Positions 5,654 to 58,648 of a DNA stretch of 64,000 nt are shown here, piece by piece. This DNA is from an uncultured bacterium (lineage in GTDB: Bacteria; Poribacteria; WGA-4E; UBA9662). Numbering within the stretch: position 1 is the first letter of the stretch; every line of letters starts with the position of its first letter. The translations under genes were made by a program, and so were the position numbers. The notes beneath the pieces were generated by a model. That model made no database searches. It was not told where the DNA came from and saw nothing but the letters and a program-made list of their open reading frames with translations. The DNA is taken from contig CAYVHK010000004.1 of NCBI GenBank assembly GCA_964451145.1, forward strand, positions 3,844-67,843. The letters run 5' to 3'.

Positions 5654-7467
5654 TGATTGTCTTGTTGTCTTTCAGAAAGTCTGTATCGCTTCGTTTCTTT
5701 TTTCTTATTGTTTGGTTTGGAATTATTTGTTTGGGTGTGAATCCTATTCTTTTATCAAATCAAAGTATCCGTTCATTACACCCAGGACAGATTGCGAACG
5801 ACTCCAAATTTTGGATAAACTTTACTAACAAAGGAAGAGATAAAGACACCTCCCAATCCAAGATTCTTCTTGATCAGCCAATTCCAGCTATTTACCTTTC
5901 GGCTATTAATGAGCAGGGAGCTGAAACCCACTACCAGAGTCGTTGGCTAAATGCAGTTTCAGCTACGATTCAACACGACAGCCGTCAATCAATCTTATCC
6001 TTACCTTTTGTCCGATCAATTGAGCCAGTACGGACTTACCGAAAAACGATTCAAATCCCTATCTGGTTCAATCAAAAACATCATATTTTATCTGCTCCTG
6101 ATAAAAATCTTGATAATGAAGTAATTGGATATGGATTATCAAAACGACAGATCGAACAAGTTCAGGCTGAATTTCTGCATAGAAAGGGATATTGGGGAGA
6201 AACTGTAGTAATCGGTGTATTGGACACTGGTTTTGATTTGAGACATCAATCTCTTAACGAAATCGAAGTTATAAATCAGTGGGATTTTGTTAACAATGAT
6301 CCTGTAACTCAAGACGAACCAGATCAAGACGATCCAGGTCAATCTGATCACGGTTCGATTGTTTTAGGTGTCTTGGCCGCTAACACCCCCAATCAGTTAA
6401 TTGGTCTAGCTCCTCATGCTAAATATTTATTAGCCAAAACGGAAAAAAACTGGCAAAATGGGGTTGATTTCGAGCGACAAATCGAGGAGGATTGGTGGAT
6501 CGCGGGCCTTGAGTGGTTGGAAAAAAATGGTGCGAAAGTAGTTAACAGTTCGCTTGGTTACGCCAATTGGTATGATTTTTCGGATCTTGATGGACAAACA
6601 TCCAAAGTTACAATTGCAGCCAATACCGCCTTGAAAAAGGGAATACTTATTGTGACTGCTAGTGGCAATCTGGGAGCAAAACAACCACAGGATCATCAAC
6701 TCGGTTTAACCGGTCGTATTACCGTTCCTGCAGATGGATTTGATGTTTTGGCTATCGGCTCCGTTAATCGTTGGGGGGGACGCGCCGCCTTCAGTTCACG
6801 AGGACCAACTGTTGATGGTAGAATTAAACCTGATCTGGTAGCATTAGGTGAAGGGATTGCCAGCATCAAGCCGCGTAGTCAATTTGGTTTTGCCACTAAT
6901 CATCGTGGCACCTCGCTTTCGGCGCCTCTAGTGACGGGGATCGTCAGTCTGTTGATGCAAGCTTTTCCAAGAGTAACAGCCATCAACTTAGTATCTGTAC
7001 TTCGTTCTACAGCCAGCAATTCAGCCCAACCTAATAATGAAATTGGTTACGGAATTGTCCGGTCTGAGCAGGCCTATCAGTTTTTGTTAGATAAATTTCG
7101 TTATACTGGCCAACCAGAGCCAATTTTGGTTAAGAAAAAACGAGCCCGAATCGCTCTATTTAGTCAAATCAAATCACCATTGATTCGGCCTAATTATCCT
7201 AATCCTTTCAATGCTGAAACGTGGATTCCATTTTCTTTGCCTGCTGATGGGTTTGTCCAAATTAGTATTTATAATATTGTTGGCCATTTGGTCCAACAAC
7301 TACGGGTTGGTGAATGTTCAGCAGGCGATTATTTGACTGTTAATCGAGCTGCTTACTGGAATGGTCGCAGCAAATCAGGCCAAGCTATTACTAGTGGTAA
7401 TTACTTTGCCGTCCTATCGGTAGACGGTAAAAATTATCCAGCATACAAAATTACTCTACAAGAGTGA
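5653..7467 (+). CDS. secreted subtilisin-like serine peptidase (S8) with T9SS-type C-terminal sorting domain
   Basis: Catalytic triad motifs GVLDTGFD, DHGS, GTSLSAPLVTG; N-terminal signal/TM; C-terminus NYPNPFNAETWIPFSLP...ISIYNIVGHLV...SGNYFAVL matches T9SS CTD consensus. Confidence 0.85.
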   Translation: MIVLLSFRKSVSLRFFFLIVWFGIICLGVNPILLSNQSIRSLHPGQIANDSKFWINFTNKGRDKDTSQSKILLDQPIPAIYLSAINEQGAETHYQSRWLNAVSATIQHDSRQSILSLPFVRSIEPVRTYRKTIQIPIWFNQKHHILSAPDKNLDNEVIGYGLSKRQIEQVQAEFLHRKGYWGETVVIGVLDTGFDLRHQSLNEIEVINQWDFVNNDPVTQDEPDQDDPGQSDHGSIVLGVLAANTPNQLIGLAPHAKYLLAKTEKNWQNGVDFERQIEEDWWIAGLEWLEKNGAKVVNSSLGYANWYDFSDLDGQTSKVTIAANTALKKGILIVTASGNLGAKQPQDHQLGLTGRITVPADGFDVLAIGSVNRWGGRAAFSSRGPTVDGRIKPDLVALGEGIASIKPRSQFGFATNHRGTSLSAPLVTGIVSLLMQAFPRVTAINLVSVLRSTASNSAQPNNEIGYGIVRSEQAYQFLLDKFRYTGQPEPILVKKKRARIALFSQIKSPLIRPNYPNPFNAETWIPFSLPADGFVQISIYNIVGHLVQQLRVGECSAGDYLTVNRAAYWNGRSKSGQAITSGNYFAVLSVDGKNYPAYKITLQE

Positions 7468-9260
7468 ATCAAGTGGATATTCAAAATATTATTCAATCGA
7501 ACAACTTTGATACTGAGAGATTACGTTCAGCTGTTCATCGGCTAGTTCAAGCGTCGGCCGCCATCTTTGATTCATCAAACTGGCAGCCAGAGAGAGCTGA
7601 TGAATTTCGAAAAAGAATTCTCAATGAGATTGTTTTTCGGGGAGTACCACCGGATTGGCGAAGGCACCAAACAAAAATTGAATCGATTGATATTATCGAA
7701 ACTGACGGCGGTTATCAGATTCAAAAATTACGGTTAGAAATCTTGCCAGATTTTTGGATTCCAGCTTTGCTTTACCAACCAAATACATTTAAATTTAAAG
7801 AACCATTACCTGCTATGTTAAGTGTTAACGGACATATTGGTCCCCTTGGTAAGTCAATAGAATTTGTACAAAGGCGGTGTATTAACCTTGCGAAGCGAGG
7901 GATTTTGACTTTGCACTTAGAGTGGTTGTCTTTCGGTGAGTTGAGTGCCCCCAACTACACACACAATCGATTAGCCTATTTAGATTTGTGTGGAGTTAGC
8001 GGTTTATCTGTTTTCTATTTGGCGATGCGAGGTGGACTAGATCTGTTGTGGGAACATTCGTTTGTCGATAAAGAGAAGATTGCCATGACAGGTCTTTCTG
8101 GTGGCGGTTGGCAGACCATTGTTTTGAGTGCTTTAGATACCCGTATTGCTCTCTCAGTTCCTAATGCTGGTTACATCGACATTTCCAATCGATTGAGCCA
8201 TGTTGGCGACATTGGCGACTTAGAGCAAAACCCAACGGATTTTCTCACTTTGGCCGACTATACACATTTGACTGCTCTGTTATTCCCTCGTCCAGCTTTG
8301 TTGATTTATAATCACCAAGACGATTGCTGTTTTGTAGCTGACCGGGCTAAACCGGCTATTTACGATGCAGTTAAGCCGATCTACTCTGCTGATTCGTCGG
8401 CCATTTTTACGTTCTATAAAAATGTTGATCCCGGTACTCACAATTATGACCGAGATAATCGGCAACGATTGTACCGTTTCTTGAGCCAGCACTTTCACAT
8501 ACCAATAATTCAAGACAAAGATATGGAGTTAGAAAGTGAGATTTTGTCCTCTGATACCTTGGTAGTTGGTCTACCTGATAAAGTTGCTAATTTTAAAACA
8601 TTAACGACCAAAATTATCAGGCAACAACATCAAATGGTAAGTAAATCACCTGAAAAACTGAAAAGTATTCTCCGTTTTCAACCAACCTCTGTGCACCAAG
8701 TTGAACCAGCGAGTATGGAAGGACAAAGTGGTCAGTTCATTTTTGATAATGGCTTATCAGCATTCTTTTGCCGATTTGAACCCGAAACAAATACAACGAA
8801 TGAAACCGTAATATTGATTGCAGATCAGGGAGTAAGTTCAATGCTTACCGAAATTGATAAACAGATTAAGATCGGAAAATCGGTGCTAGCAGTTGATTTA
8901 TTTCTCACTGGTCAGGCTATACCTACTGGAATGTCTGTTTCTCATACAGTGATGTTACTTTCGACTGTAGGCCTTCGGGCACTCGGGCTTCAAGTGTCTC
9001 AATTAATTGCTATCATTAACTGGAATTTCCAACGATATTCGTCTGAGCGAATATCTCTGTTTAGTAAAGGATGGACAACTAGCATTGTTGCTCAACTCAC
9101 GAAAGAATTGTGTTTTGATCGAATAGAAAATCACATAGCCCTGAACCCACTAATAAGGCTACGGAATTTGATTGACAAGGAAGTTGAATACGAGCAGTGT
9201 CCAGCTCTATTTTGTTTCGGTCTACTTCGACATATTGATGGGACATCATTCAGGAATTAA
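7464..9260 (+). CDS. alpha/beta-hydrolase family protein (esterase/dienelactone-hydrolase-like)
   Basis: 598 aa; nucleophile-elbow GLSGGG; GTG start overlaps upstream TGA (GTGA). Confidence 0.55.
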   Translation: MNQVDIQNIIQSNNFDTERLRSAVHRLVQASAAIFDSSNWQPERADEFRKRILNEIVFRGVPPDWRRHQTKIESIDIIETDGGYQIQKLRLEILPDFWIPALLYQPNTFKFKEPLPAMLSVNGHIGPLGKSIEFVQRRCINLAKRGILTLHLEWLSFGELSAPNYTHNRLAYLDLCGVSGLSVFYLAMRGGLDLLWEHSFVDKEKIAMTGLSGGGWQTIVLSALDTRIALSVPNAGYIDISNRLSHVGDIGDLEQNPTDFLTLADYTHLTALLFPRPALLIYNHQDDCCFVADRAKPAIYDAVKPIYSADSSAIFTFYKNVDPGTHNYDRDNRQRLYRFLSQHFHIPIIQDKDMELESEILSSDTLVVGLPDKVANFKTLTTKIIRQQHQMVSKSPEKLKSILRFQPTSVHQVEPASMEGQSGQFIFDNGLSAFFCRFEPETNTTNETVILIADQGVSSMLTEIDKQIKIGKSVLAVDLFLTGQAIPTGMSVSHTVMLLSTVGLRALGLQVSQLIAIINWNFQRYSSERISLFSKGWTTSIVAQLTKELCFDRIENHIALNPLIRLRNLIDKEVEYEQCPALFCFGLLRHIDGTSFRN

Positions 9261-17720: not shown

Positions 17721-18073
17721 TTTTTGTTCCTTGATGCTGTATTTTCGTTTTTATTATTGCTTGTTTGTGCTTTTAGATTTACGGTACTTAACAGGCGCAT
17801 ATTCTATCAGAGTCGATTTTTCACTTCAACCACTTTGGTTGCACAGAACAAAGTATATTTGCTGAATTAACATTGGTCGGCATTGTTAATTACTATCGAT
17901 AATTCTCATTCATATAAGGCCGAGTTAGGTATTCTATGAGCTTTAATTTTAGCCCACTTCACAGGTGTTTTCTCTTTTTTTATTTGGGAATCCAAAGCTA
18001 GATGATATTCAACCAACTCAAATATCTCTTGATTGATTGTTTTAAGTCGAACTGGACCGATATTCGGAGCTAA

Positions 18074-18560
18074 TCACGCATAACTTAGCCAATTTTTCTT
18101 TTGATCATTACGATGATTTACCATTTCTTCTGAGATTCGCAGTACACGCCGAAAATGACCGGCTTTAACCTTTACATTTTCCACACTCAGGATTTTATAA
18201 TTACTGATCAAAATATCTTTCGCTTTTTTCTGATGAAACCGCACACCACTAGTTGACCACTTCTTTTCCAATCTCATCTCAGTTGTTTAGGAATAAACAG
18301 CTGATCATCGGCATATTTATAAGTTGTAGAACGAATTTTTCGATCTTTCCTTTCCTTTGCTTAAACTGAATCAAATCGGATTGATGCCAACCAGTAACTT
18401 TATGACTCAAAAAGTAAGACCTAAAGTTGATAGTGTTGTGAATTACAACCATGTTTCGATTAGCATTTTTAACCCGTTTGGATCTTTTATGCGTTCGATT
18501 TTCAGCCCTTTCCTATTCCATCGATAAAACTTGAGTGGTATGTGTCACACTGTTTCCTCG
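18074..18560 (-). pseudogene. decayed reverse-transcriptase remnant (group II intron/retron-like RT fragments in three frames)
   Basis: Minus-strand frames contain ...KVTGWHQSDLIQF (motif-4-like), then frame-shifted YKYADDQLFI (RT motif 5, YADD at ~18304-18315), then ORF 18074-18277 GVRFHQKKAKDILIS (motif-6-like); multiple stops/frameshifts. Confidence 0.35.
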
Positions 18561-18758
18561 TCGGTGGAATACCCACTTATTGCCAATACTTACAGGGAAA
18601 TAATCTTCTGAAACTAGCTGAGAAGCTACAAAGAAGAAAATAAAAGTTGAAAATTGGACAACCGTATGCCTAGTTAATATTTTCCTCATTTCTTATCGCT
18701 CTAGATACTTACTTTTGCCGTCCGCTGTATTATAACACAATAAAATTGCCATCCACGT

Positions 18759-22228: not shown

Positions 22229-22963
22229 TTAACCCGAATTATACCGAGATAATTCAGTGTTGATCTCTTGTGAAATTTCAACTGCTTGTCTTAGTCTATC
22301 AACTTGATTTCTGAGTTGGTTGTTGTAATCTTGGGTAATGGGTTCGCTTAGAAAGATAATAGTTTCATGTAAGGCAGTCAGCGAAGAATTGATATCACGG
22401 TCAAGCCGTTCTAGATCAGTATTGAATTTTTTCAATTTTTCTAACTGTTGTTTTAGTTTCCTGCCTTTGGCTATCAGCTTTGATTGGATTTGGATATCGT
22501 CTTCTTCCGCTATTGCTGAGTGGTTTCTCTCTAAATCAGTTCGCAATGTTAGCACATCTGTCTGAGCTAATTTCTGTCGGTATTGATTTCGTTGTTCAAT
22601 GACTACAGCAGTTTCTGATTTTAAAATACGGAAGGTACTTGGAATTTCAGCTGCTATAAATTGTTTATCCATTTTATTATCAACCAACTGGTTGAAGGCG
22701 ATCTCCAATTCAACTAAGCGTTCTAGGTCCAATCGTCCGGTTTCATCTAGTTGATCCATTAAATTCTGATGGGTATCGGGGGGGATCCACTTTCTGGATC
22801 TTGATTTAGGACGGGTGGGCTTGATTGGAAGGAGTGCCAATTTCTCAGACATAGCCAGAACAGCTAATCCAGGAGCAACACCCGCTAATCCAAACGATTT
22901 TAGTAACCAGACAACCGTTAGTAGCGTAGCAGCTAAAATTGCCACCAAAATCAATCTTTGCAT
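22229..22963 (-). CDS. hypothetical membrane-anchored coiled-coil protein
   Basis: 244 aa; N-terminal TM helix, remainder coiled-coil-like. Confidence 0.45.
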   Translation of the reverse strand: MQRLILVAILAATLLTVVWLLKSFGLAGVAPGLAVLAMSEKLALLPIKPTRPKSRSRKWIPPDTHQNLMDQLDETGRLDLERLVELEIAFNQLVDNKMDKQFIAAEIPSTFRILKSETAVVIEQRNQYRQKLAQTDVLTLRTDLERNHSAIAEEDDIQIQSKLIAKGRKLKQQLEKLKKFNTDLERLDRDINSSLTALHETIIFLSEPITQDYNNQLRNQVDRLRQAVEISQEINTELSRYNSG

Positions 22964-23691: not shown

Positions 23692-24906
23692 CTACTTCTG
23701 TAGTTGGGCTAAAGTGGCTGATAGACGTTCGACCTGTTCTCGGCGGATCCGTTTGTGGACACGGTCGGATACTTGCCCCTTTTTGTGCATTTCGTCCAGA
23801 TGAGCGATAAACTCTAACCGAATACTTTTTGTCGATTCTAAGTCGTTAGTGCCTGATTTCCCTAGCCAACTAGCATCGGGAACTGCTTCTGTTACTCCAG
23901 ATATAATAGGCTCTACTAGGCTAGATTTCCGAATACGTAGCACTAATGTTAAAACAAATCCTATTATGCAAACAATCAGACCAACTATTAGTACAATCAA
24001 TAATGTCGTTGAAGAAGGGGCGTTTTTCAATTGTATCTGGATTGTTTCTCCCTTAACAATTGGAGCAGTTGTTTGGTAAGCTGCATAGACAACGTTGTGT
24101 ATGGTTTGCGATGACTTGTCCCCTAAGTTTTTCGATTGAACAAAAAACGGAAGAGAATCGGGGATTAATAGTTGAAAATTTTGAGTCTGGAATGGTTGTA
24201 TTCGAGATAGATCAATAACCTTATTGACATGCAAGATATAAGAGATTGTTAAGTCTGTTTGTCCGCTAAGAATTGGAGCTGGTATCTGTACTGGGTTTTG
24301 ATTTAGGTTCTCACTAGTAAATTCCATATTTGCACTCCCGACCTGAATTTGTTCCGCTCCTGCTGGCAAAACCATTAAACAACCCATCATCTGCCCATTA
24401 ATTTCTTGTCGAAATCTGAATGGACTAGTATTTTCTAGCCGTAAAATTTCAAGGGCTTGGACAGCTTCACCATGTGCATGGTCAGGTAACGGCCGGAGAA
24501 TCAGTGAATGACGTAGTATTTTAATTACTTGGGGATCATTAGTGAAAGCGTTTAGGTTCAGATCAACTGTAATAGAAGTTGCCCATTTGGTGATCATAAT
24601 GTCCTTTTCTTGCTCAGTGTTTCCTTCGAATTCAGTAGAAACACTGTAATGGGTAGACAAACTGATGGGCAAATCCTGAAACTCATAGCGGCCGTCTTTA
24701 TTGGTTTTAGCTTCCCAACGATTAGCTGATTTCTTATCTTCCTGAATCTCATCTTATATTACCTACTGGTTGGCAATTGGTTGATTTTGATCAAAATCGA
24801 AGACTCGGCCTTGAATTTGACCGGTTTGAGCAATTAAAAAGGTCGGGACCAATACCAAAAACATTAACACCAAGCAATGATAAGATAAATTGTTAATTTT
24901 TCCCAT
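23692..24906 (-). CDS. secreted carboxypeptidase-regulatory-like-domain membrane protein, interrupted by in-frame TAG (24763-24765) and TAA (24754-24756)
   Basis: ATG at 24904-24906 (overlaps upstream stop, TGATG) gives a signal peptide MGKINNLSYHCLVLMFLVLVPTFLIAQTGQIQGRVFDFDQNQPIANQ-*-VI-*-DEIQEDKKSANRWEAKTNKDGRYEFQDLPISLSTHYSVS... that matches the CarbopepD_reg pattern and runs in frame into ORF 23692-24672. Confidence 0.55.
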
Positions 24907-25346
24907 CACTGTTTGGTCCGCTTGTATTTTTCAATTTCGATTTCAGCTTCAGCAAAAACGGTTTCAAGCAGAACTGGCGGAGAGTCAGCAAGCGATTGGT
25001 GTTTTTTTTCTTTTAAATCCACTTTTTGTAGAATTTCGACAGTTTCTTGTAAAAGTAGTTGTTTCAACTGGTTATAATCTTCAGCCGAGATTTTGCCAAC
25101 TTCGTGATCTTCTTCCAAATCGGCTAAAGCTCCGTAATATTGTTCTCGATCGATGACTTGTGCCAATATATTAGAATTATCCGCCAATATGGTTGTTTGA
25201 TCACGTCGAAAAATAGGACGGGCAATGAAAAAAAAGGTTGGAATACAGAGAATCAGTACCCAAAGTAGAATAATCATGTGGTTTAATTCGAAGAGATGGC
25301 CTAACTTTCTTTTCTTTTTTAGTTGGTATTTAGGGGCAATAGGCAA
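24906..25346 (-). CDS. hypothetical membrane protein
   Basis: 146 aa; one TM segment; stop overlaps next start. Confidence 0.45.
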   Translation of the reverse strand: MPIAPKYQLKKKRKLGHLFELNHMIILLWVLILCIPTFFFIARPIFRRDQTTILADNSNILAQVIDREQYYGALADLEEDHEVGKISAEDYNQLKQLLLQETVEILQKVDLKEKKHQSLADSPPVLLETVFAEAEIEIEKYKRTKQ

Positions 25347-26591: not shown

Positions 26592-27791
26592 ATGTCTTTA
26601 TCCCCTCATAAAATCGCTATGCTCGGTACAGGGTTTATAGCCGATTTTTATACCTCTACGTTACATAGCCAACGTGGTATTGATCGTGTACAAGCAGTTT
26701 ATTCTCGGTCAAAAGATCGAGCGAAAGTATTTCAATCGAAATGGAATGTACCACATGGTAGCGATAGTTTAGAAGAAACCGTGAATCGAGATGATATCGA
26801 TACCGTTATTATTGGATTACCCAATCACCGCCATGAAGAAGCTGTTCTGGCTGCTGCTAATGCTGGGAAAGCTATCTTATGCACAAAACCATTGGGCCGA
26901 AATGCGGCTGAGTCAAAACGGATGTTAGAGGCCGTGCAATCAGCCGAGGTATTTCATGGTTATTTGGAAGATCTGGTTTATCCTCCCAAAACGCTAAAAG
27001 CTCTTCAATCGGTAAAAAATGGGGCTTTGGGTAAAGTGCTGTGGGTTCGATCCCGAGAGACGCATCCCGGTCCGCATAGTGATTGGTTTTGGAATAACGA
27101 AATGGCAGGAGGAGGAGCCATTATCGATATGGGTTGTCACTGTGTTGAAATTATTCGTAACTTCATTGGTAAAGGGGTACGGCCAGTTGAAGTTATGTGT
27201 TGGGCTGATACGTTGGTTCATCCTATCGAAGCTGAAGACCATGGCATTGGTTTAATCCGGTTTGAAAACGGAGCCATGGGACAATTCGAAGTTAGTTGGG
27301 CTTTTCGTGGAGGTATGGACTTACGAGACGAAGTGTCGGGTTCCGAAGGCACAATTTGGCTTAATCATTTGTTGAGAAACGGTTATGAAATGTATACATC
27401 AGAAAGTAAATGTTGATACGAAGCTGAGAAAGCAGAAGGTGATACCGGTTGGTTATTTCCGGTTGGTGATGAAGCTGCTGAACTTGGTTATACCGACATG
27501 TTCAAGGAGATGTTTACTTGCTTAGATAATGACACAGAACCAATGGAAACCTTCTATGACGGATACATAGTCAACACTATCATTGATGCTTGCTACCGAT
27601 CAGCCGAAACTCGTCAATGGGAAACTATTGAACTCGATATTTGGCAAGGTGATGAAGGTGTAGAACATGTTAGAGCTATAACCGAGTTAGACGGTAAAAT
27701 TGTAATTAAGACTGAAGTTATGCCCGATGGTAGAACTAAGCAGATTTTAAAAGACGCTGAGAGTGGTGAAATTAGTGAACAACTATTATGA
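26592..27791 (+). CDS. Gfo/Idh/MocA-family oxidoreductase, full length with an in-frame TGA at 27414-27416
   Basis: N-terminal Rossmann ([10 protein letters not shown]), C-terminal GFO_IDH_MocA_C continues in the same frame after the TGA (…[22 protein letters not shown]…[10 protein letters not shown]…[11 protein letters not shown]); the TGA aligns with Gly of paralog 54025-55134. Confidence 0.7.
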
Positions 27792-33985: not shown

Positions 33986-34969
33986 TCAGTTACTCTCGGA
34001 ATATTCGGGAATAATGTAGTGTTCTGGGTTCTGAGGTACATTTTTTATGTAAACACCGTAATGGAGATGGTAACCGGTGCTAGTACCAGTCGAACCAACG
34101 TACCCAATGACTTCGCCTCGTACAACTTCCCTACCTTTTTTAATCCCTTTGGCAAATCTCAGTAAATGACCATAGAGAGTATCCATTTCCTTGCTGGTAT
34201 GACTGATTCGAATATAGCGCCCAAAACCTTTTGGGGCGTTACCTGTTTTTTCTATTATGCCGTTAGCGGTAGCAACCACCGGCGTACCTTTGCGAGTGGC
34301 AATATCCAGACCATTATGGAAATGGCGTTTGCGCGTGATTGGATGCAAACGATATTTGAAGCCAGATGAAAAATAGTAATCGATTCCATACTTAGGTTTA
34401 TCACCTTTGTATGATGGGCGAATAGGCAAAATGAAGGGAGTTTCGGTCACTTGTTCTAATTGTTCCATTACCGCTTGGTAAACCTCGCCAACTTCTTGCT
34501 TCAAAGCCGGAATTAACTCTGGGTTATCAGCAAAGGAGTCTAGTACTGGTTTTCTTTTTTTATTTTGGGAGGCAGTATTCAGCCCGTTTGTGTCCCCGGA
34601 GACTTTTGGATCAGCTTCGGAAAGTAGAAATTCGGAGTCACTACCACCCTGTCCGAGCAAGCCTTCGTCCTCTAAACCTAACACACGCCGAACGACCTTG
34701 ACCATATCACGCACTTCTTCCCATTTCTTTTCATAAAAGTGAAGCTGTTGTTTTTGTGCGTTGATTTCAGCTTTTTGTTTCAGACTTTTTTGGGTGGTTA
34801 AGTCAAGCTTGTTTTTAGCGTGTATACCATAACCCACCGCACTAGCAATAATTGCTAATATGATCAATATTAGAAAACCGAAAAAAAGAATTTTACCTCT
34901 TCCGACGGCATATCTTCGAATATGTTGATTATCCGAAGACATGACAATCACCGTGTAGGAACGAGACAA
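33986..34969 (-). CDS. M23-family metallopeptidase (murein endopeptidase-like) with N-terminal membrane anchor
   Basis: HxxxD / HLHY motifs (HNGLDIA...GSTGTSTGYHLHY). Confidence 0.8.
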   Translation of the reverse strand: MSRSYTVIVMSSDNQHIRRYAVGRGKILFFGFLILIILAIIASAVGYGIHAKNKLDLTTQKSLKQKAEINAQKQQLHFYEKKWEEVRDMVKVVRRVLGLEDEGLLGQGGSDSEFLLSEADPKVSGDTNGLNTASQNKKRKPVLDSFADNPELIPALKQEVGEVYQAVMEQLEQVTETPFILPIRPSYKGDKPKYGIDYYFSSGFKYRLHPITRKRHFHNGLDIATRKGTPVVATANGIIEKTGNAPKGFGRYIRISHTSKEMDTLYGHLLRFAKGIKKGREVVRGEVIGYVGSTGTSTGYHLHYGVYIKNVPQNPEHYIIPEYSESN

Positions 34970-39057: not shown

Positions 39058-40113
39058 TTATTTTTGTAAACTAAAAAACTCTACTAAATCGGATCCGTGT
39101 GTTTTTGTGTTTAGTTGGTTTTCGATTTTTGCGATTTTACCTTCCATATCAATATAGATTGCCATTCGATCACTAGTACTACTAATGGTTTCCTTGGCCG
39201 CTCCATACAACATACTCAAGTTTCGACCAACATCAACTAATAGTGGAAAGTTGAGATTGTCACGAATGACAAAGTCCCGATGTGATTTTGCGTCTTGAAC
39301 CGAAATACCAAACACCTGGATGTTCAAGGATCTAATTTGGCTCATCTCATCCCGGAGAGAGCAAACTTGTGCCGTTCAGCCAGGTGTCATATCCATTGGA
39401 TAAAACGATAAAACGACATTCTTTTTATTTTTAAAATTGCTGAGACGATAGCCTTTTCCATTTTCATCATAAGCGACAAAATCAGGAGCTAGCTGTCCAA
39501 CTTTGATCTCATATTTTATTGTAGATCGAATTGTTTTCAGTATTTCGATTCCGTGTTCTGGAATATTAATCTGGTTATTAATAGAACGAACGTATCCAGA
39601 CTTATCAATAACAAAAGTGGTCCGGCCTGACATTTTTTTGTCACTTGTGATACTTGAATATAGTTTAGAGACTACTAAATTGGTGTCGGCCAGAAGGGGA
39701 AATCCAAACTGATATTGTTCCTGAAAATCGTGATGCGATTTTTAGTCGATACCACTAATACCATAAATGACAGTTTCAGTTGCTTTAATATTGGTCAACT
39801 CATCACGGAGCGACTCCAATTCAGAAGTTCAGCCACCAGTAAAATCTTTGGGATAAAACGCCAAAACTACGTTTTGCTTACCCCAGTTTTGACTTAGGCT
39901 ATGTGTATTACCAGATCCATCCTCTAGCTGAAAATCAGGAGCAACCATACCAACAACGATCTCTCCCCCTACGGTAGGATAAAGAAGCGTTTGCTTTCTT
40001 TGTTCAGCTACATTTTCTACCATTTTAAACTCCTTTTTCTTGGTCTGTATTTCACCAATCACAGAAGCGAATGAAATAAGAATCACTAATATTATTAATG
40101 CGTGCCTATACAT
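39058..40113 (-). CDS. secreted tandem double peroxiredoxin (Bcp/PrxQ-type x2 in one frame); TGA (39829-39831 and 39376-39378) at both peroxidatic-Cys positions, likely selenocysteine, plus in-frame TAA at 39742-39744
   Basis: Continuous frame: signal peptide...VAPDF...FYPKDFTGG-TGA-TSELESLRDE...GISGID-TAA-KSHHDF...FPLL...TFVIDKSGYV...KVGQLAPDF...FYPMDMTPG-TGA-TAQVCSLRDE...FGIS...FPLL...AIYIDMEGKI; no stop or start codon between the two Prx units. Confidence 0.75.
39340..39362 (-). promoter_or_regulatory. candidate SECIS hairpin downstream of second Prx TGA
   Basis: mRNA +14..+36 after UGA: G-C,C-G,U-A,C-G,[U bulge],U-A,C-G,U-A,C-G, loop CGGGAU; same geometry as the first with compensatory changes (C-G vs G-C; U-A vs G.U). 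Confidence 0.4.
39793..39816 (-). promoter_or_regulatory. candidate SECIS hairpin downstream of first Prx TGA
   Basis: mRNA +13..+36 after UGA: G-C,[A bulge],G-C,U-A,C-G,G.U,C-G,U-A,C-G with 3'-bulged U and loop CGUGAU. Confidence 0.4.
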
Positions 40114-51919: not shown

Positions 51920-53056
51920 ATGTTTTCTAATCATTTGGTTCTTCATATTCTATATGGGATTTTGGCCTTGACTTTTCTACGTCCGATTGTGAGCCGATGT
52001 GAAGTGGTTGATCCCGAAAATCAACCACCTATAGTAAGTGATGTACAGGCCAAACAAGTTGGGCTGCATGAAGTCCAAATTACTTACACTGTTATAGATA
52101 ACAACGGTGATCAGCTAACTATTTCAGTAGCAGTTTTAACCAAAGACGGTCAGACCCTATACCCGAAACAGCTAACTGGCGAAGTCGGCCGAAGTATTGT
52201 CAGTGGAGAGAAAAAGAAAATTTCATGGACAATTACAGATGAAATTCCGATGTACCATTTCGCTGATGGCTACGTTGTCGAAATTATTGCTGATGACCAG
52301 CATAGACCGGCAAAAAAAATTCATTGGGAACCGGATGGAGCTGAAATGGTCTTGGTACCAGCTGGTATTTTTTTGATGGGTAGCGAGGAAATGCAACACG
52401 CTACGCCTATCCACCCAGTCACAATATCGGCTTTTTACATGGATACTTATGAGGTAACGGTTGGTCAATTTAAGCAATTTGTGGAGCAAACTGGCTATGT
52501 GTACGATTTTTGGCCTAAAGTATCCATACTGGCACCTACTGATAACCATCCGATGATTTTCATAACATGGTACGATGCAATGGCATATTGTAATTGGGCC
52601 AATAAACGGTTGCCAACAGAAGCTGAATGGGAATATGCAGCACGAGGCGGTTTAGCTAAACGTCCCTATCCATGGGGTAGTATTATTAATCATCAACAAG
52701 CCAACTACGCTATTTCTGCCCATGATGACAACCGACAGCTTAAATCAATCGGTAATTTTTCCCCCAATGGTTATGGATTATACGATCTAGCTGGCAATGT
52801 CTTTGAATGGTGTTTAGATGCATTTGACGATAAATTTTACCAATATAGTCCATCAAAAAACCCTCTGGCTAGTGATCTCAGTTTGACTGACTTGGAGCGA
52901 AATTTCACTACGGTAAAATCAGGTCGGGTTTTACGAGGCGGTTCTTATCACTACAATGCTCAATATGTTAGGGTCGATTACCGAGATTATGCCAACCCAG
53001 ATCATCGGTTTGATGCAGGTGGGTTTCGTTGTGTTTTCGAAGCTTCAAAAAAGTAG
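51920..53056 (+). CDS. secreted Ig-like + FGE-sulfatase-domain protein
   Basis: ...RLPTEAEWEYAARGG...GNVFEWCLD...RVLRGGSY...GFRCV. Confidence 0.75.
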   Translation: MFSNHLVLHILYGILALTFLRPIVSRCEVVDPENQPPIVSDVQAKQVGLHEVQITYTVIDNNGDQLTISVAVLTKDGQTLYPKQLTGEVGRSIVSGEKKKISWTITDEIPMYHFADGYVVEIIADDQHRPAKKIHWEPDGAEMVLVPAGIFLMGSEEMQHATPIHPVTISAFYMDTYEVTVGQFKQFVEQTGYVYDFWPKVSILAPTDNHPMIFITWYDAMAYCNWANKRLPTEAEWEYAARGGLAKRPYPWGSIINHQQANYAISAHDDNRQLKSIGNFSPNGYGLYDLAGNVFEWCLDAFDDKFYQYSPSKNPLASDLSLTDLERNFTTVKSGRVLRGGSYHYNAQYVRVDYRDYANPDHRFDAGGFRCVFEASKK

Positions 53057-53081
53057 CACCCAGATAAAAAGGAAACAAAAA

Positions 53082-53978
53082 TTGAAAACTAAGAGTCAGT
53101 TTAGGCTTGTAAAATACGTTCTTGCTAATCGTCCATTATTCATTTTAACAGAGATATTTTTTTTGTTGGTTTTTATTCCTGTCATATCTCTGGCTGGATC
53201 TGTGATTACTAGTGGGCCATTGTCAGAAGAGCAAGAGATGAAACAACCTGATCAACCAAGATTAAATCAAAAAAGGGATGGTGCCTCTTGGATACTCAAC
53301 TGGTATGGACCTGATGGAGGCTACATGAATAATGGTGGGGCGAAAAAATCAGCTTCCATTGACCACATTAAAAATGCTACCAATGGTGTTTTAGACCAAC
53401 CGAGCCTGTCGACGATGGAAGGGTTATTAAAAACTAAACATGTCAAAATCAATTTTGAGCCCAAGCATTATATGACTGGTACAGAAGGTGAATGGATGAT
53501 AATCAATTTGGGAACTAGAGCTGATGCTGCTGGTGGTCGGAACATGTCTTCCCGTTATGGATTTCGTGATCTCAACAACTTTGATACTTGGCAAATCATT
53601 GTGATAAACGCACCAAAAGATATGAAGGCTATAATGTCGCCGGCCCAAGACGACTACGCCCAAATCTGGATTAACGGTCAAAAGTGGCACAACGATTCCG
53701 AATGGACAGGAGGTCCTACTGAGGTCGATTTTGACGTGCAAGTAGAATTGAAAGTCGGTAATAATGTTCTACTGTATCGTTGTGGTGAATCTGGTGGACA
53801 TGAGTATGCTAATCTATACTTTGATCGAACCACTATGCAAAAAGTTCGTATCATTCCCAATCAAGCAAAAACAAAAGCTGCCTTTTTCGATGAGTTAGCT
53901 AATCTTCCAACGCTGTGTTATCACCGAGATAAATTGGCCTGTTTGTGGGCTGATTTTAAATTGATAGTTCGTCAATAA
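53082..53978 (+). CDS. hypothetical secreted protein (possible jelly-roll/LamG-like domain)
   Basis: TTG start with AAGGAA RBS; N-terminal signal peptide; no firm domain match by eye. Confidence 0.4.
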   Translation: MKTKSQFRLVKYVLANRPLFILTEIFFLLVFIPVISLAGSVITSGPLSEEQEMKQPDQPRLNQKRDGASWILNWYGPDGGYMNNGGAKKSASIDHIKNATNGVLDQPSLSTMEGLLKTKHVKINFEPKHYMTGTEGEWMIINLGTRADAAGGRNMSSRYGFRDLNNFDTWQIIVINAPKDMKAIMSPAQDDYAQIWINGQKWHNDSEWTGGPTEVDFDVQVELKVGNNVLLYRCGESGGHEYANLYFDRTTMQKVRIIPNQAKTKAAFFDELANLPTLCYHRDKLACLWADFKLIVRQ

Positions 53979-56447: not shown

Positions 56448-57005
56448 ATGAGTAGACCCGATGGAATATGGCAGGCTGTAGGTAAACAAAACAACCGAAA
56501 ACAGGCAGAGAAAGATGTGGCTGGCCTGCTCAAAAAGATCGATCTTTTTGAGGATTTGAGTGACCGAGACTTACGCCACATCGCTCAGATTGCCTACCGA
56601 CGCTCTTATCGAATCGGCGAGCCCGTTGTTATTGAAGGACAAGATGCAGCAGGGATGTATATTATTATGGAGGGCGAAGTTGAGGTAACAAAAGTGCTAG
56701 CCGACGGATCGGTCGTATCCTTAGCTAAGCTGAACAGTGGCAATTTTTTCGGTGATGTAGGTTTGATAGACAATTCTCCACGAACAGCTACGGTTCAAGC
56801 AATTCAGGATTCGGAAATGATTGGCTTCTTTCGCCCAGAGCTAATGAAATTGATGGATTCTCATTCGCGCCTAGCCTCGAATCTGATTTTCACGTTAGCC
56901 AAAATTGTAGCTTCTCGACTACGTATCACCAACCGACAACTGCAAGAAGCTCAGGATATGATCGAACAACTCCAAACTGAATTAAATGGATCACAAATTA
57001 ACTAG
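56448..57005 (+). CDS. cyclic-nucleotide-binding domain protein
   Basis: FFGDVGLIDN...RTATV cNMP-binding signature. Confidence 0.7.
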   Translation: MSRPDGIWQAVGKQNNRKQAEKDVAGLLKKIDLFEDLSDRDLRHIAQIAYRRSYRIGEPVVIEGQDAAGMYIIMEGEVEVTKVLADGSVVSLAKLNSGNFFGDVGLIDNSPRTATVQAIQDSEMIGFFRPELMKLMDSHSRLASNLIFTLAKIVASRLRITNRQLQEAQDMIEQLQTELNGSQIN

Positions 57006-57021
57006 CCGAATTAAACCTGAT

Positions 57022-58311
57022 ATGAACAATCAATCGACGATAGAGCGATCAGCTAGTTCGGTGGACGTATTGACTGAAACGTTACTTCCCCTGTCAACTA
57101 CTCTAGATCGAATCGCACAAGATGGCCAAACGATAAGCCGAGAATCTCGTCGGCAGTCGCAAAGCATTCGAGAACAGAATATCTTTCTTCGGCTTATTAG
57201 TGTCGCAATGATAACAGTTTTTGTTGCTATAATTGCGGGGTTAATCTATCTGATTCGGGATACTCTAACTATTATAATGGTTTCGTTTTTAATCGCCTAT
57301 ATTTTGGCCCCAATGGTTGATTATTTGGACGATATTGGTCTTCCCAGAGGCTTAGCTGTTACAATAGTGCCTTTATTGATTTTAGCTTTATTTGCTTTTG
57401 GTTCCATTTTTGTCATTTCTAAGGTGGCTGGACAAATTGACCATTTACAAACCAATGAGAACAAAGCTCTAGTTGGTCAAGTTGAACGGCTATTAAATGC
57501 TTTGCCGCCTTCATTAACTGATAGATTGATAGATGTGTTACGCGTGGAGGTTACTACCGACGCAATCAATTCAGAAAAGTCCAATTTGGATACTCATCAA
57601 GTAATTGAAGCTTCGATGAAGCGAATAGAAACTTTGATTGTTGGTCAGTCTAAGCAAATTGTGGGTGCGGTCACTAGTTCAGCCAAAGGCCTATTTTCGG
57701 CTTTCATTAATGGTATTATTATTTTGTTCACTTCCTGTTTCTTTTTAAGTGGTGGCCGTGAGATGAAAAAAGGATTGATTAGAGCCGTGCCGAACCGTAT
57801 TTTTGAACCAGCCTTAGTTTTGTTAGACGGTATCGACCGCCAATTGGGTGATTACCTACGTAGCCGTTTGGTCCAAACCATCATTATTGCCATTATATGC
57901 CTGATCGGTTATCTAATATTAGGTCTACCTTTCGCTATTTTATTAGGTGTCGTAGCTGGTTTGGCGAACCTAATTCCGTATATAGGCCCTTTTATTGGTG
58001 CGATACCAGCACTAGCAGTTGTTTTTGTTGGTTCTCGATTTGGTTTTGGTTCTAGCGTGATCGGAATTATTATAATTACTATCGGTGTTCAGATTATTGA
58101 TACTGCTTTGGTGACACCACTTTTGGTGGGCAAAAGTGTGGAACTAGATCCGATCACGACAGTAATTGTGGTTTTAGTGGGTGAACAGTTTTTGGGTTTA
58201 ATTGGAATGTTAATGGCTGTGCCGTTAACTGCGATGCTAAAACTAATTATTGAAGAGTTAATTATTCAGTTTAGAGGTTATTCTCGCACATTTACTTATG
58301 GTGGATCATAA
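57022..58311 (+). CDS. AI-2E family transporter (PerM/YdiK-like)
   Basis: …LANLIPYIGPFIGAIPA… conserved AI-2E motif, 8 TM. Confidence 0.75.
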   Translation: MNNQSTIERSASSVDVLTETLLPLSTTLDRIAQDGQTISRESRRQSQSIREQNIFLRLISVAMITVFVAIIAGLIYLIRDTLTIIMVSFLIAYILAPMVDYLDDIGLPRGLAVTIVPLLILALFAFGSIFVISKVAGQIDHLQTNENKALVGQVERLLNALPPSLTDRLIDVLRVEVTTDAINSEKSNLDTHQVIEASMKRIETLIVGQSKQIVGAVTSSAKGLFSAFINGIIILFTSCFFLSGGREMKKGLIRAVPNRIFEPALVLLDGIDRQLGDYLRSRLVQTIIIAIICLIGYLILGLPFAILLGVVAGLANLIPYIGPFIGAIPALAVVFVGSRFGFGSSVIGIIIITIGVQIIDTALVTPLLVGKSVELDPITTVIVVLVGEQFLGLIGMLMAVPLTAMLKLIIEELIIQFRGYSRTFTYGGS

Positions 58312-58621
58312 ACTAATGTCAGTATTGGGCAACAAAAATCAGCGCAGGGATCAATTTGTTCTTTTTTTTCTCCTTATTGCTTTGCTTTTTTTAGCTTGGC
58401 AAGTATCTGCAGATCCGCCTGATTCATCTCAATCACCAAAATCGTCTAGCAGCGATCATATTTCGTCTGATACCCCGACCAAGATTAATCCACCCGTCTG
58501 GTTTAGCTTGATTGTGTTGATCCTAATTGGATTATCTTTACTCAATTCCGGCATGTTTTTTTTCTTAAAAAAACGGCATTCCCCGGAACAGCAAACTACT
58601 CCTAAAAAGCCGTTCCTGTAG
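58298..58621 (+). CDS. hypothetical small membrane protein
   Basis: ~100 aa, two TM segments, Ser/Pro-rich linker. Confidence 0.4.
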   Translation: MVDHKLMSVLGNKNQRRDQFVLFFLLIALLFLAWQVSADPPDSSQSPKSSSSDHISSDTPTKINPPVWFSLIVLILIGLSLLNSGMFFFLKKRHSPEQQTTPKKPFL

Positions 58622-58648
58622 TTGTCCTGACTGTATTCATACGATTTT

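What the first reader, a model, noticed from the sequence alone, without database searches (positions are those of the whole stretch)
23692..24906. Two in-frame stops (TAG, then TAA 9 nt later) inside a conserved CarbopepD-regulatory-like domain of a signal-peptide protein
A frame from ATG 24906 gives a signal peptide and then GRVFDFDQNQPIANQ-TAG-VI-TAA-DEIQEDKKSANRWEAKTNKDGRYEFQDLPIS…. This matches the carboxypeptidase-regulatory-like fold pattern (G.V.D…P..GA.V.L…TD.DG.F.F..LP) across both stops and continues into ORF 23692-24672. All three frames contain a stop in this 12-nt stretch (…CAGTAGGTAATATAAGAT…), so a single indel cannot rescue it. The ATG overlaps the upstream gene's stop (TGATG), which suggests the full-length gene was recently functional.
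Basis: seen in the sequence. Interest (0 to 1): 0.55.

Follow-up and report, generated by a model that had tools for sequence, protein, structure and literature searches.

The report
Private double stop, probably sequence error
The two stop codons are really in this deposited contig, but three other assemblies of the same marine Poribacteria species read leucine at both places. The stops lie in a small patch of abnormal base changes, one of several in this contig, so they are most likely a local sequence or assembly error (or at most a strain-private knock-out), not a biological signal.

Summary
On the minus strand, the frame from ATG 24906 to TAG 23692 is open for 404 codons except TAG (24765-24763) and TAA (24756-24754).

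Three independent assemblies of the same species (99.4%, 99.2% and 95.4% identical) have an intact 404/405-codon gene, with Leu codons (TTG/TTA and TTA) at those two positions. The second Leu is invariant in the family.

Both stops are single T>A changes. They belong to a 29-nt patch (24736-24764) of five A:T<->T:A transversions found only in this contig.

The contig has more such private patches:
- 27370-27421: 11 changes, all to A or T, which put a TGA into a neighbouring oxidoreductase gene at a peptide that is identical in two other Poribacteria species.
- 22817-22845.
- 53906-53917.

Where at least two other assemblies agree, the window's private changes are 3 transitions to 14 transversions. 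Natural divergence in the same species is about 4:1 the other way (p about 1e-5 to 1e-7).

TAA and TAG are the normal terminators here. The window holds no tRNA gene, no Rfam match, and no template repeat or reverse transcriptase.

Best reading: local consensus or assembly errors (about 0.68). Second: a one-event mutation cluster making a strain-private pseudogene (about 0.22). Programmed recoding is effectively excluded. Interest is low.

The parts
23692..24906 (-). Full-length gene (404 codons including the two in-frame stops and the terminator). It encodes a Poribacteria type I membrane protein: signal peptide, CarboxypepD_reg-like beta-sandwich, further beta domains, one transmembrane (TM) helix and a cytoplasmic helical hairpin.
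   Evidence: Intact orthologues P0001 (404 aa, 98%) and P0054 (405 aa). AF2 model with pLDDT 89 showing helix 4-18, strands 28-295, TM 300-326 and helices 346-403.
24763..24765 (-). In-frame TAG. It derives from TTG (Leu48) by one T>A change at 24764.
   Evidence: L011 and L005 have TTG and L001 has TTA. Relatives have L, P or S at this position.
24754..24756 (-). In-frame TAA. It derives from TTA (Leu51) by one T>A change at 24755.
   Evidence: L001, L011 and L005 all have TTA. Leu51 is invariant in 19 Poribacteria homologues and at least 90% conserved in the wider 43-sequence family. It lies in beta-strand 48-55.
24736..24764 (.). Patch A: five substitutions private to this contig, all A:T<->T:A transversions (24764, 24757, 24755, 24747, 24736). 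On the coding strand they give L>stop, I>I, L>stop, F>I and E>D.
   Evidence: In the 2788 nt shared with L001 and L011 the window has only 6 private changes, and all 6 are A<->T (Fisher p = 3e-5).
24757..24798 (.). Two inverted repeats at and just 5' of the patch (coding direction). One is a perfect 16-nt palindrome, GATTTTGATCAAAATC (24783-24798). The other is an ancestral 9-bp hairpin, AATTGCCAA/TTGGTAATT (24757-24778). Its 3' arm takes two of the five changes, and both break pairs.
   Evidence: self inverted match; folds of the window and L011 alleles: -10.0 versus -13.3 kcal/mol.
23692..24597 (-). Truncated ORF as found in the public NCBI-source protein set (P0002, 301 aa, starting MITKWATS). 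It lacks the signal peptide and most of the CarboxypepD_reg-like domain.
   Evidence: P0002 is a singleton cluster from NCBI only, on a 69,844-nt contig.
24906..25346 (-). Upstream small membrane protein, CcmI N-terminal-like. The likely true start is ATG 25277 (123 aa). Its TGA overlaps the target's ATG, so the two are probably translationally coupled.
   Evidence: NCBIfam TIGR03142, E 2e-6, 27.9 bits (below the 29.3 cut-off). L001 aa, and L001 has a stop upstream of 25277 in the longer frame. The same overlap occurs in L004.
27370..27421 (+). Patch B in the GFO/IDH/MocA oxidoreductase gene (26592-27791). It has 11 window-derived substitutions, all to A or T, giving 9 amino-acid replacements plus TGA at 27414-27416. 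This is the same kind of lesion as patch A, 2.6 kb away.
   Evidence: L002 and L004 (other species) have exactly the L001 peptide NHWLRTGYEMFTSVGQGGYVAEK.
22817..22845 (.). Patch C: four window-private substitutions (three transversions) in the 244-aa gene. They give A40E, I45L and L49P at residues conserved in L001 and L007, the first two also in L004.
   Evidence: Four other assemblies agree against the window.

Best explanation
The two stops are not a biological device. They are two T>A miscalls or miswritten bases, in Leu codons TTG and TTA, inside a 29-nt patch of five A:T<->T:A changes that exists only in this deposited contig. The most likely cause is a local consensus or assembly error in a low-abundance metagenome-assembled genome. 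The same contig carries at least three further private, transversion-rich patches that ignore protein conservation.

In the organism the gene is most likely intact. It would encode a 404-aa type I membrane protein: a Sec signal peptide, a CarboxypepD_reg-like beta-sandwich, further beta domains, a TM helix and a cytoplasmic helical hairpin. It is translationally coupled to a small CcmI-N-like membrane protein upstream.

What is shown: the stops are private to this contig, the ancestral codons are known, the substitution spectrum is abnormal, the changes are clustered, and other patches exist. What is inferred: that the cause is technical rather than mutational. The technical route is unknown. 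Possibilities are erroneous contig ends fixed by contig merging, or sequence-specific miscalls next to the inverted repeats at low coverage.
For: (1) Three independent assemblies of the same species carry sense codons at both sites and an uninterrupted ORF. They are L001 (99.37%), L011 (99.25%) and L005 (95.4%).

(2) The truncated product P0002 is a singleton in a collection of about 15 billion proteins.

(3) In the 2788 nt shared with L001 and L011, all 6 window-private changes are A<->T transversions and 5 lie within 29 nt. The A<->T share of natural divergence in this species is 21/447.

(4) Over 6569 positions where at least 2 other assemblies agree, window-private changes are 3 transitions to 14 transversions. 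Private changes of L001+L011 are 31:7 (p = 1e-5), and divergence from L007 is 357:90 (p = 1e-7).

(5) Patch B (11 changes in 52 nt, all to A/T) destroys a peptide that is identical in two other Poribacteria species and inserts a TGA. Patch C replaces residues conserved in the conspecific assemblies and, for two of the three, in another species.

(6) Outside patch A the 1.2-kb gene shows no private decay. This rules out gradual pseudogene erosion.

(7) The other assembly (ERZ23495044) has its own private breaks where the window is intact. One is a patch of 4 transversions, 1 transition and a 1-nt deletion at window 8132-8156. Another is TAT>TAG at 57910-57912. It also has three private T>A changes at 24630-24681, and two of these change a Phe (F76I, F93I), Phe76 being at least 90% conserved in the family. 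Such lesions therefore follow the assembly, not the lineage.

(8) Local assembly errors that corrupt gene calls are a documented property of uncurated MAGs (PMC7111523). Inverted repeats are a documented trigger of runs of Illumina miscalls, with A-T conversions favoured in low-GC genomes (PMC3141275).
Against: - No reads are available, so absence of read support is not shown.
- I do not know the sequencing platform or assembly pipeline of the source contig.
- Assemblers normally need each k-mer at least twice, so five coincident miscalls need a special cause (very low coverage, duplicates, or contig-end merging) that I cannot demonstrate.
- By eye, the changed bases do not clearly copy the preceding base, as the lag model of PMC3141275 predicts.
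- A truly decayed gene of ordinary type exists nearby (17905-18689), so this lineage does carry real pseudogenes.
Confidence: 0.68

Rival explanations
1. The stops are real: a strain-private pseudogene made in one event. A short stretch of error-prone (translesion or gap-filling) DNA synthesis wrote several A:T>T:A and G:C>T:A transversions at once. Two of them turned Leu codons into stops. The gene is then dead in this strain: a 47-aa signal-peptide stub, plus at best a product lacking a signal peptide from ATG 24597.
For: The changes are clustered and of one class, as expected from a single event. The rest of the gene is undecayed, which fits a very recent event. From my own knowledge, SOS/Pol V-type synthesis favours AT>TA and GC>TA transversions. 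The lineage has at least one ordinary pseudogene.
Against: - At least four such patches in the roughly 20 kb that can be polarised would mean hundreds of them per genome, two of the four being knock-outs of conserved genes. That is implausible for the dominant genotype of a free-living population that is 99.3% identical to intact strains.
- The other assembly shows its own private patches and stops at other places, which fits a technical cause better.
- Nothing else private and transition-like has accumulated in the window, as a real lineage would show (3 transitions to 14 transversions).
Confidence: 0.22
2. Programmed recoding: the stops are read through, reassigned or suppressed, so that the full-length protein is still made from this sequence.
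For: The frame continues perfectly across both stops and the domain alignment spans them.
Against: - The stops are absent from every relative, near or far.
- TAA and TAG terminate 38 of 45 long ORFs in the window, including this gene itself.
- The window holds no tRNA and no Rfam element.
- There is no significant local structure (z = -1.26).
- From my own knowledge, no TAA-decoding mechanism is known in bacteria, and two stops 9 nt apart would multiply two small read-through rates.
Confidence: 0.02
3. Targeted diversification of the N-terminal domain, by a diversity-generating retroelement (DGR) or a similar hypermutation system, with the stops as by-products.
For: Two assemblies each carry private T>A changes on the coding strand within the same 135 nt (24630-24764).
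Against: - There is no second copy of the region (template repeat) and no reverse transcriptase in the 64-kb window or in the 14-kb L001 contig.
- The changes of each lineage occupy separate sub-segments instead of rewriting one whole variable region.
- The changed residues are conserved core positions (Leu51 invariant, Phe76 at least 90%), not a variable ligand-binding surface.
- Similar patches occur in unrelated genes.
Confidence: 0.01

Closest known systems
Local assembly or consensus errors in uncurated metagenome-assembled genomes (Chen et al. 2020, PMC7111523)
   Same: A short stretch of consensus corrupts a protein-coding gene, is private to one assembly and recurs at several places in the same contig. 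The other assembly has its own such stretches.
   Different: The defining test, that no single read perfectly supports the stretch, could not be run. These patches are pure substitutions without indels, which is not the commonest form of such errors.
Sequence-specific Illumina miscall runs triggered by inverted repeats (Nakamura et al. 2011, PMC3141275)
   Same: The patch starts inside and just after two inverted repeats. The changes lie on one strand and spread over about 30-130 nt downstream in two independent assemblies. A-T conversions dominate in a low-GC genome.
   Different: The changed bases do not clearly repeat the preceding base. The platform and coverage are unknown. Patches B and C were not examined for such triggers beyond a glance.
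Ordinary nonsense pseudogene
   Same: There are in-frame stops in a gene that is intact in close relatives.
   Different: There is no other decay in the gene. Both stops belong to one tight cluster of a rare substitution class. The true pseudogene at 17905-18689 looks different: it has a CAG>TAG and a TGG>TGA transition plus two 5-nt insertions spread over 450 nt.
Mutation clusters from error-prone polymerases or template switching
   Same: Several substitutions lie within tens of bases, apparently made at once.
   Different: Template switching at the quasi-palindrome would perfect the hairpin, but here the changes weaken it. No donor sequence exists in the window. The frequency of patches is too high for a viable lineage.
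Carboxypeptidase regulatory-like domain proteins (Pfam PF13620); ribophorin I/Ost1-like architecture
   Same: The N-terminal beta-sandwich matches PF13620. The overall layout resembles ribophorin I/Ost1 in Foldseek (E 1.7e-8 to 4e-7): beta-sandwich ectodomains, a single TM helix and a cytoplasmic helical tail. The middle domain resembles the N-terminal beta domain of M1 aminopeptidases.
   Different: The Pfam score is just below the gathering cut-off. TM-scores are only about 0.3 and sequence identity is 10-13%, so this is fold and architecture resemblance only. No function follows from it.

Membership tests
Programmed stop-codon read-through / recoding | The stop codon is conserved at the same position in orthologues | tested here: not met
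   All near relatives (L001, L011, L005) and more distant ones (19 and 43 sequences) have sense codons. Position 51 is an invariant Leu.
Programmed stop-codon read-through / recoding | A recoding signal or a decoding tRNA, or a reassigned genetic code | tested here: not met
   There is no tRNA gene, no Rfam family and no significant structure. TAA, TAG and TGA terminate 24, 14 and 7 of the 45 long ORFs. Only the 64-kb window was searched.
Local assembly / consensus error | The sequence is private to one assembly while independent assemblies of the same population agree with each other | tested here: met
   Three assemblies agree against the window at all five patch-A sites, and four agree against it at patch C.
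Local assembly / consensus error | The changes do not look like evolution: abnormal spectrum, clustering, disregard of conserved residues | tested here: met
   Private changes are 3 transitions to 14 transversions, against 31:7 and 357:90. Five of six fall within 29 nt. They include stops and replacements at invariant residues.
Local assembly / consensus error | No read, or only biased reads, supports the consensus | not testable with these tools
Nonsense pseudogene (real) | An in-frame stop in an ORF that is intact in relatives | tested here: met
Nonsense pseudogene (real) | The lesion is present in the organism's DNA (read support or a second isolate) | not testable with these tools
   No other record carries the allele. 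P0002 is a singleton, and the JGI scan for either allele found nothing.
Diversity-generating retroelement target | A template repeat near-identical to the variable region, plus a reverse transcriptase | tested here: not met
   Patches A and B have no second copy in the window. No reverse transcriptase is among the genes of the window or of L001.
Diversity-generating retroelement target | Variation confined to template adenines and rewritten across the whole variable region | tested here: not met
   Window-derived and L001-derived changes occupy separate sub-segments. Conserved core residues are hit.
CarboxypepD_reg (PF13620) domain protein | A match to the Pfam profile at or above the gathering score | tested here: inconclusive
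   31.0 bits against a 32.3-bit cut-off, E 3.2e-7, covering profile positions 1-80 of 82. 31 of 43 family members match at E <= 1e-3, the best at 1.5e-9. The predicted beta-sandwich is consistent.

The most novel reading that the evidence does not exclude
The patches are real. A wild, free-living marine Poribacteria lineage would then undergo localised showers of A:T>T:A (and G:C>T:A) transversions tens of bases long. The stretch just downstream of two inverted repeats in this gene would have been hit independently in two strains (window 24736-24764; L001 24630-24681). That would point to a structure-triggered, strand-specific, error-prone synthesis process acting in nature.
Probability: 0.08. 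Interest if true: 0.5.

Novelty: not a real feature. Interest (0 to 1): 0.08.

Why it matters
The finding matters mainly as a caution. The public record of this genome carries a truncated 301-aa 'protein' and a split oxidoreductase, and both are probably products of local sequence errors. Scans for recoding, pseudogenes or stop-codon reassignment in metagenome-assembled genomes will pick up such patches.

A simple test separates them from biology: polarise the private changes against two or more conspecific assemblies, then check the transition/transversion ratio and the clustering.

The work also defines the intact gene. It encodes a type I membrane protein that Poribacteria conserve and whose wider relatives keep the same architecture. 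Its function is unknown, and it is translationally coupled to a CcmI-N-like small membrane protein.

Tried and rejected
- **JGI metagenome scans.** A scan with P0001 and a scan with a degenerate DNA pattern covering both alleles both found nothing.
- **GTDB genome scan**. It returned only three other Poribacteria species. The source genome is not among the representatives, so its pipeline and platform stay unknown.
- **Exact look-ups** of P0002 and of the window's OmpA found no contig on record.
- **DGR.** Rejected: no template repeat and no reverse transcriptase.
- **Quasi-palindrome template switching.** Rejected, because the changes weaken the ancestral hairpin instead of perfecting it.
- **Gene conversion from a paralogue.** Rejected: there is no donor in the window, and the patches create stops.
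- **Genetic-code reassignment or a suppressor tRNA.** Rejected.
- **Two-channel Illumina idea.** Read on the + strand, all 11 patch-B changes are 'gain of signal' under two-channel chemistry (T>A, G>T, C>A, G>A), and 4 of 5 patch-A changes are so on the minus strand. This rests on my own knowledge of the chemistry. I kept it only as a weak hint, because the ENA patch at 8132-8156 mixes gains and losses and the platform is unknown.
- **Lag model of sequence-specific errors** (PMC3141275). Checked by eye on patch A; it is not clearly met.
- **Structure prediction.** The first AF2 model, from 19 sequences, was too poor to use (pLDDT 51). The afdb50 fold library was unavailable.
- **Open stretch 58262-58648** with two stops 9 nt apart. 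It is an ordinary small membrane-protein gene ending at 58619-58621.

Full report
**1. The observation**

On the minus strand, the frame that starts at ATG 24906 reads MGKINNLSYHCLVLMFLVLVPTFLIAQTGQIQGRVFDFDQNQPIANQ, then TAG (24765-24763), V, I, TAA (24756-24754), then DEIQEDKK... It continues without a further stop to the terminator at 23694-23692, 404 codons in all. The ATG shares its A with the TGA of the upstream ORF.

With X at the two stops, Pfam CarboxypepD_reg aligns to residues 30-117, across both stops. The E-value is 3.2e-7 and the score 31.0 bits, just under the 32.3-bit gathering score.

There is one small exception. Within the 12-nt stretch only two frames hold a stop; the third frame's TGA begins 4 nt after it. 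These off-frame stops also exist in the intact alleles.

**2. What the gene is**

A search of 5.8 billion protein clusters found 53 relatives. The only ones that carry a source name are labelled Candidatus Poribacteria. P0001 (404 aa, 98% identical, full coverage) is intact. P0002 (301 aa, 100% identical, NCBI, on a 69,844-nt contig) is the truncated product from the NCBI-source protein set for this very sequence, starting at ATG 24597.

A profile search of 1.84 billion representatives showed a wider family of about 380-420-aa proteins with the same layout: 215 hits at E <= 1e-10.

With 43 of these sequences, AlphaFold gave a confident model (pLDDT 89):
- an N-terminal helix 4-18 (signal peptide);
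- beta domains 28-295;
- a TM helix 300-326;
- a cytoplasmic helical hairpin 346-403.

The two stop positions, Leu48 and Leu51, lie in beta-strand 48-55. Leu51 is invariant in the 19 Poribacteria sequences and at least 90% conserved in the wider family.

Foldseek against the PDB gives only architectural resemblance: ribophorin I/Ost1 (E 1.7e-8 to 4e-7, TM about 0.3) and the N-terminal beta domain of M1 aminopeptidases.

The upstream 123-146-aa gene is a small membrane protein with a sub-threshold match to the CcmI N-terminal domain. Another Poribacteria species (L004, 64% aa identity for the target protein) keeps the gene order MutS, GFO oxidoreductase, OmpA, small gene, target, Maf, 244-aa gene, 440-aa gene. 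It also keeps the start/stop overlap.

**3. Relatives at the stop site**

Three independent assemblies of the same species cover the site:
- L001: ENA ERZ23495044, 14.3 kb, 99.37% identical, 0 gaps over 13.7 kb.
- L011: ENA ERZ23495190, 2.8 kb, 99.25%.
- L005: JGI 3300009104, 2.8 kb, 95.4%.

All three have an uninterrupted ORF. The ancestral sequence is CAG TTG GTA ATT TTA GAT GAG TTT CAG GAA GAA AAG. The window has CAG TAG GTA ATA TAA GAT GAG ATT CAG GAA GAT AAG. Each stop is thus one T>A change in a Leu codon (TTG>TAG, TTA>TAA). Three more A<->T changes lie within the same 29 nt (24736-24764).

**4. The changes do not look like evolution**

In the 2788 nt shared by the window, L001 and L011, the window has only six private changes. 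All six are A:T<->T:A transversions, and five are in the patch. L001 and L011 together have 38 private changes, of which 31 are transitions (Fisher p = 3e-5).

Against the 95.9%-identical L007, natural divergence is 357 transitions to 90 transversions, with A<->T only 21 of 447.

Over the 6569 window positions where at least two other assemblies agree, the window's private substitutions are 3 transitions and 14 transversions. This differs from the L001+L011 private changes at p = 1e-5 and from the L007 divergence at p = 1e-7.

The private changes fall in patches:
- 22817-22845: A40E, I45L and L49P in the 244-aa protein, at residues conserved in the conspecific assemblies and, for the first two, in L004.
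- 24736-24764.
- 53906-53917.

A fourth patch, 27370-27421, has 11 substitutions relative to L001, all to A or T. It turns NHWLRTGYEMFTSVGQGGYVAEK of the neighbouring GFO/IDH/MocA oxidoreductase into [22 protein letters not shown]. Two other Poribacteria species have exactly the L001 peptide, so every change is window-derived.

Outside patch A the target gene carries no private change at all. This is not gradual pseudogene decay.

**5. Lesions follow the assembly, not the lineage**

Contigs L013, L001, L012 and L014, all from one ENA assembly, cover nearly the whole window at 99.2-99.7% identity. That assembly has its own private breaks where the window is intact:
- A patch at window 8132-8156 (four transversions, one transition and a 1-nt deletion) that splits the 598-aa gene.
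- A TAT>TAG change at 57910-57912 that splits the AI-2E transporter gene.
- Three private T>A changes at 24630, 24639 and 24681, immediately downstream of the window's patch. They give F93I, S90T and F76I; Phe76 is at least 90% conserved in the family.

Overall, the window and this assembly differ by 277 substitutions, of which 42 (15%) are A<->T. That is three times the share seen at greater divergence. A constant layer of error-like changes added to real polymorphism explains this.

**6. Rival readings tested**

*Recoding or reassignment.* TAA, TAG and TGA end 24, 14 and 7 of 45 long ORFs, including this gene itself. The window has no tRNA gene, no Rfam family and no significant structure around the site. 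The stops are absent from all relatives.

*DGR.* There is no second copy of either patch and no reverse transcriptase. The two lineages' changes occupy separate sub-segments, and conserved core residues are hit.

*Quasi-palindrome template switching.* The ancestral allele has a 9-bp hairpin (24757-24778), and two of the changes break it rather than perfect it.

*Real one-event mutation cluster.* This cannot be excluded without reads. However, four patches in the roughly 20 kb that can be polarised, two of them knock-outs of conserved genes, would imply an implausible load for the dominant genotype of a free-living population.

*Internal initiation (TTG 24672 or ATG 24597).* This would give a protein without a signal peptide and without half of the first domain, whose roughly 190-aa ectodomain could not reach its side of the membrane (inference from topology). 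The upstream region is conserved coding sequence, not a decayed leader.

**7. Most likely mechanism**

The deposited consensus is locally wrong. Local assembly errors that corrupt gene calls are described for uncurated MAGs (PMC7111523).

Patch A begins inside and just after two inverted repeats: a perfect 16-nt palindrome at 24783-24798 and the hairpin at 24757-24778. Both assemblies' private T>A changes lie on the same strand, downstream of these repeats. Inverted repeats are a published trigger of runs of Illumina miscalls over about 40 nt, with A-T conversions favoured in low-GC genomes (PMC3141275). This link is an inference. The lag signature described there is not obvious in the five changes, and I do not know the platform, the coverage or the assembly pipeline.

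**8. Verdict**

The gene is real and is intact in the species. The stops are private, unselected, and part of a pattern of error-like patches in this contig.

My probabilities are about 0.68 for a technical artefact, about 0.22 for a real strain-private knock-out made in one clustered event, and about 0.03 together for recoding or targeted diversification. Either way nothing new is involved, so interest is low.

Noticed in passing
window 26592-27791 (+), patch 27370-27421, TGA 27414-27416: The GFO/IDH/MocA oxidoreductase gene is split (274 aa + 97 aa) by a patch of 11 window-derived substitutions, all to A or T. The patch changes 9 residues and adds a stop in a peptide that is identical in L001, L002 and L004.
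   Followed up: yes
window 17905-18689 (-): A DUF3108-like gene is intact (257 aa) in L007 but broken in the window by CAG>TAG (about 18515), two 5-nt insertions (about 18362 and 18281) and TGG>TGA (about 18074). It looks like an ordinary decayed pseudogene, different in kind from the transversion patches. No closer reference covers it.
   Followed up: partly
window 22817-22845 and 22426 (244-aa gene, minus strand): Window-private changes A40E, I45L, L49P and I180F fall at residues conserved in L001 and L007 and, apart from L49P, also in the other species L004. Four assemblies agree against the window at the patch.
   Followed up: yes
window 53894-53917; ENA contigs L012 (end) and L014 (start) overlap here by 48 nt: A cluster of transversions in which both ENA contigs agree against the window at 53906, 53916 and 53917 (window P/C versus ENA P-or-Q/V near the C-terminus of gene 52956-53978). 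The ENA assembly breaks into two contigs exactly here.
   Followed up: partly
window 34688-34730 = first 54 nt of L001: Five mismatches, four of them transversions, lie within the first 54 nt of the ENA contig (one more follows at nt 87). They change E>D, K>N and V>G between the two. The direction cannot be polarised, but the position suggests contig-end error.
   Followed up: partly
window 8132-8156 and 57910-57912: The other assembly (L013, L014) carries its own private lesions where the window is intact. One is a patch of four transversions, one transition and a 1-nt deletion that splits the 598-aa gene 7464-9260. The other is TAT>TAG, which splits the AI-2E transporter gene 56986-58311.
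   Followed up: yes
window 24741-24753 and 24675-24687 (minus strand): The 13-mer ATGAGTTTCAGGA occurs twice in the gene. The same T>A change (GAGTTTC>GAGATTC) is private to the window in the first copy (24747) and private to L001 in the second (24681). This context-specific coincidence fits a systematic error or a hot spot.
   Followed up: partly
window 39058-40113 (-): A tandem AhpC/TSA (peroxiredoxin-like) region is fragmented into three short ORFs in the window (94, 85 and 95 aa). It is also fragmented, differently, in L012 (64, 147 and 95 aa). A cluster of 8 differences lies at 39715-39765.
   Followed up: no
window-wide comparison with ENA assembly ERZ23495044: At about 0.5% divergence the transition/transversion ratio is 189:88 and A<->T changes are 15% of substitutions. 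At 4% divergence (L007) the ratio is 357:90 and A<->T changes are 4.7%. The excess of transversions among near-identical assemblies suggests a layer of errors in one or both.
   Followed up: partly
window 58317-58621 (+): A small ORF for a membrane protein (about 100 aa, ending TAG 58619-58621) lies between the AI-2E transporter and ABC-F genes. It explains the in-frame open stretch with two nearby stops upstream of 58649, so nothing is broken there.
   Followed up: yes
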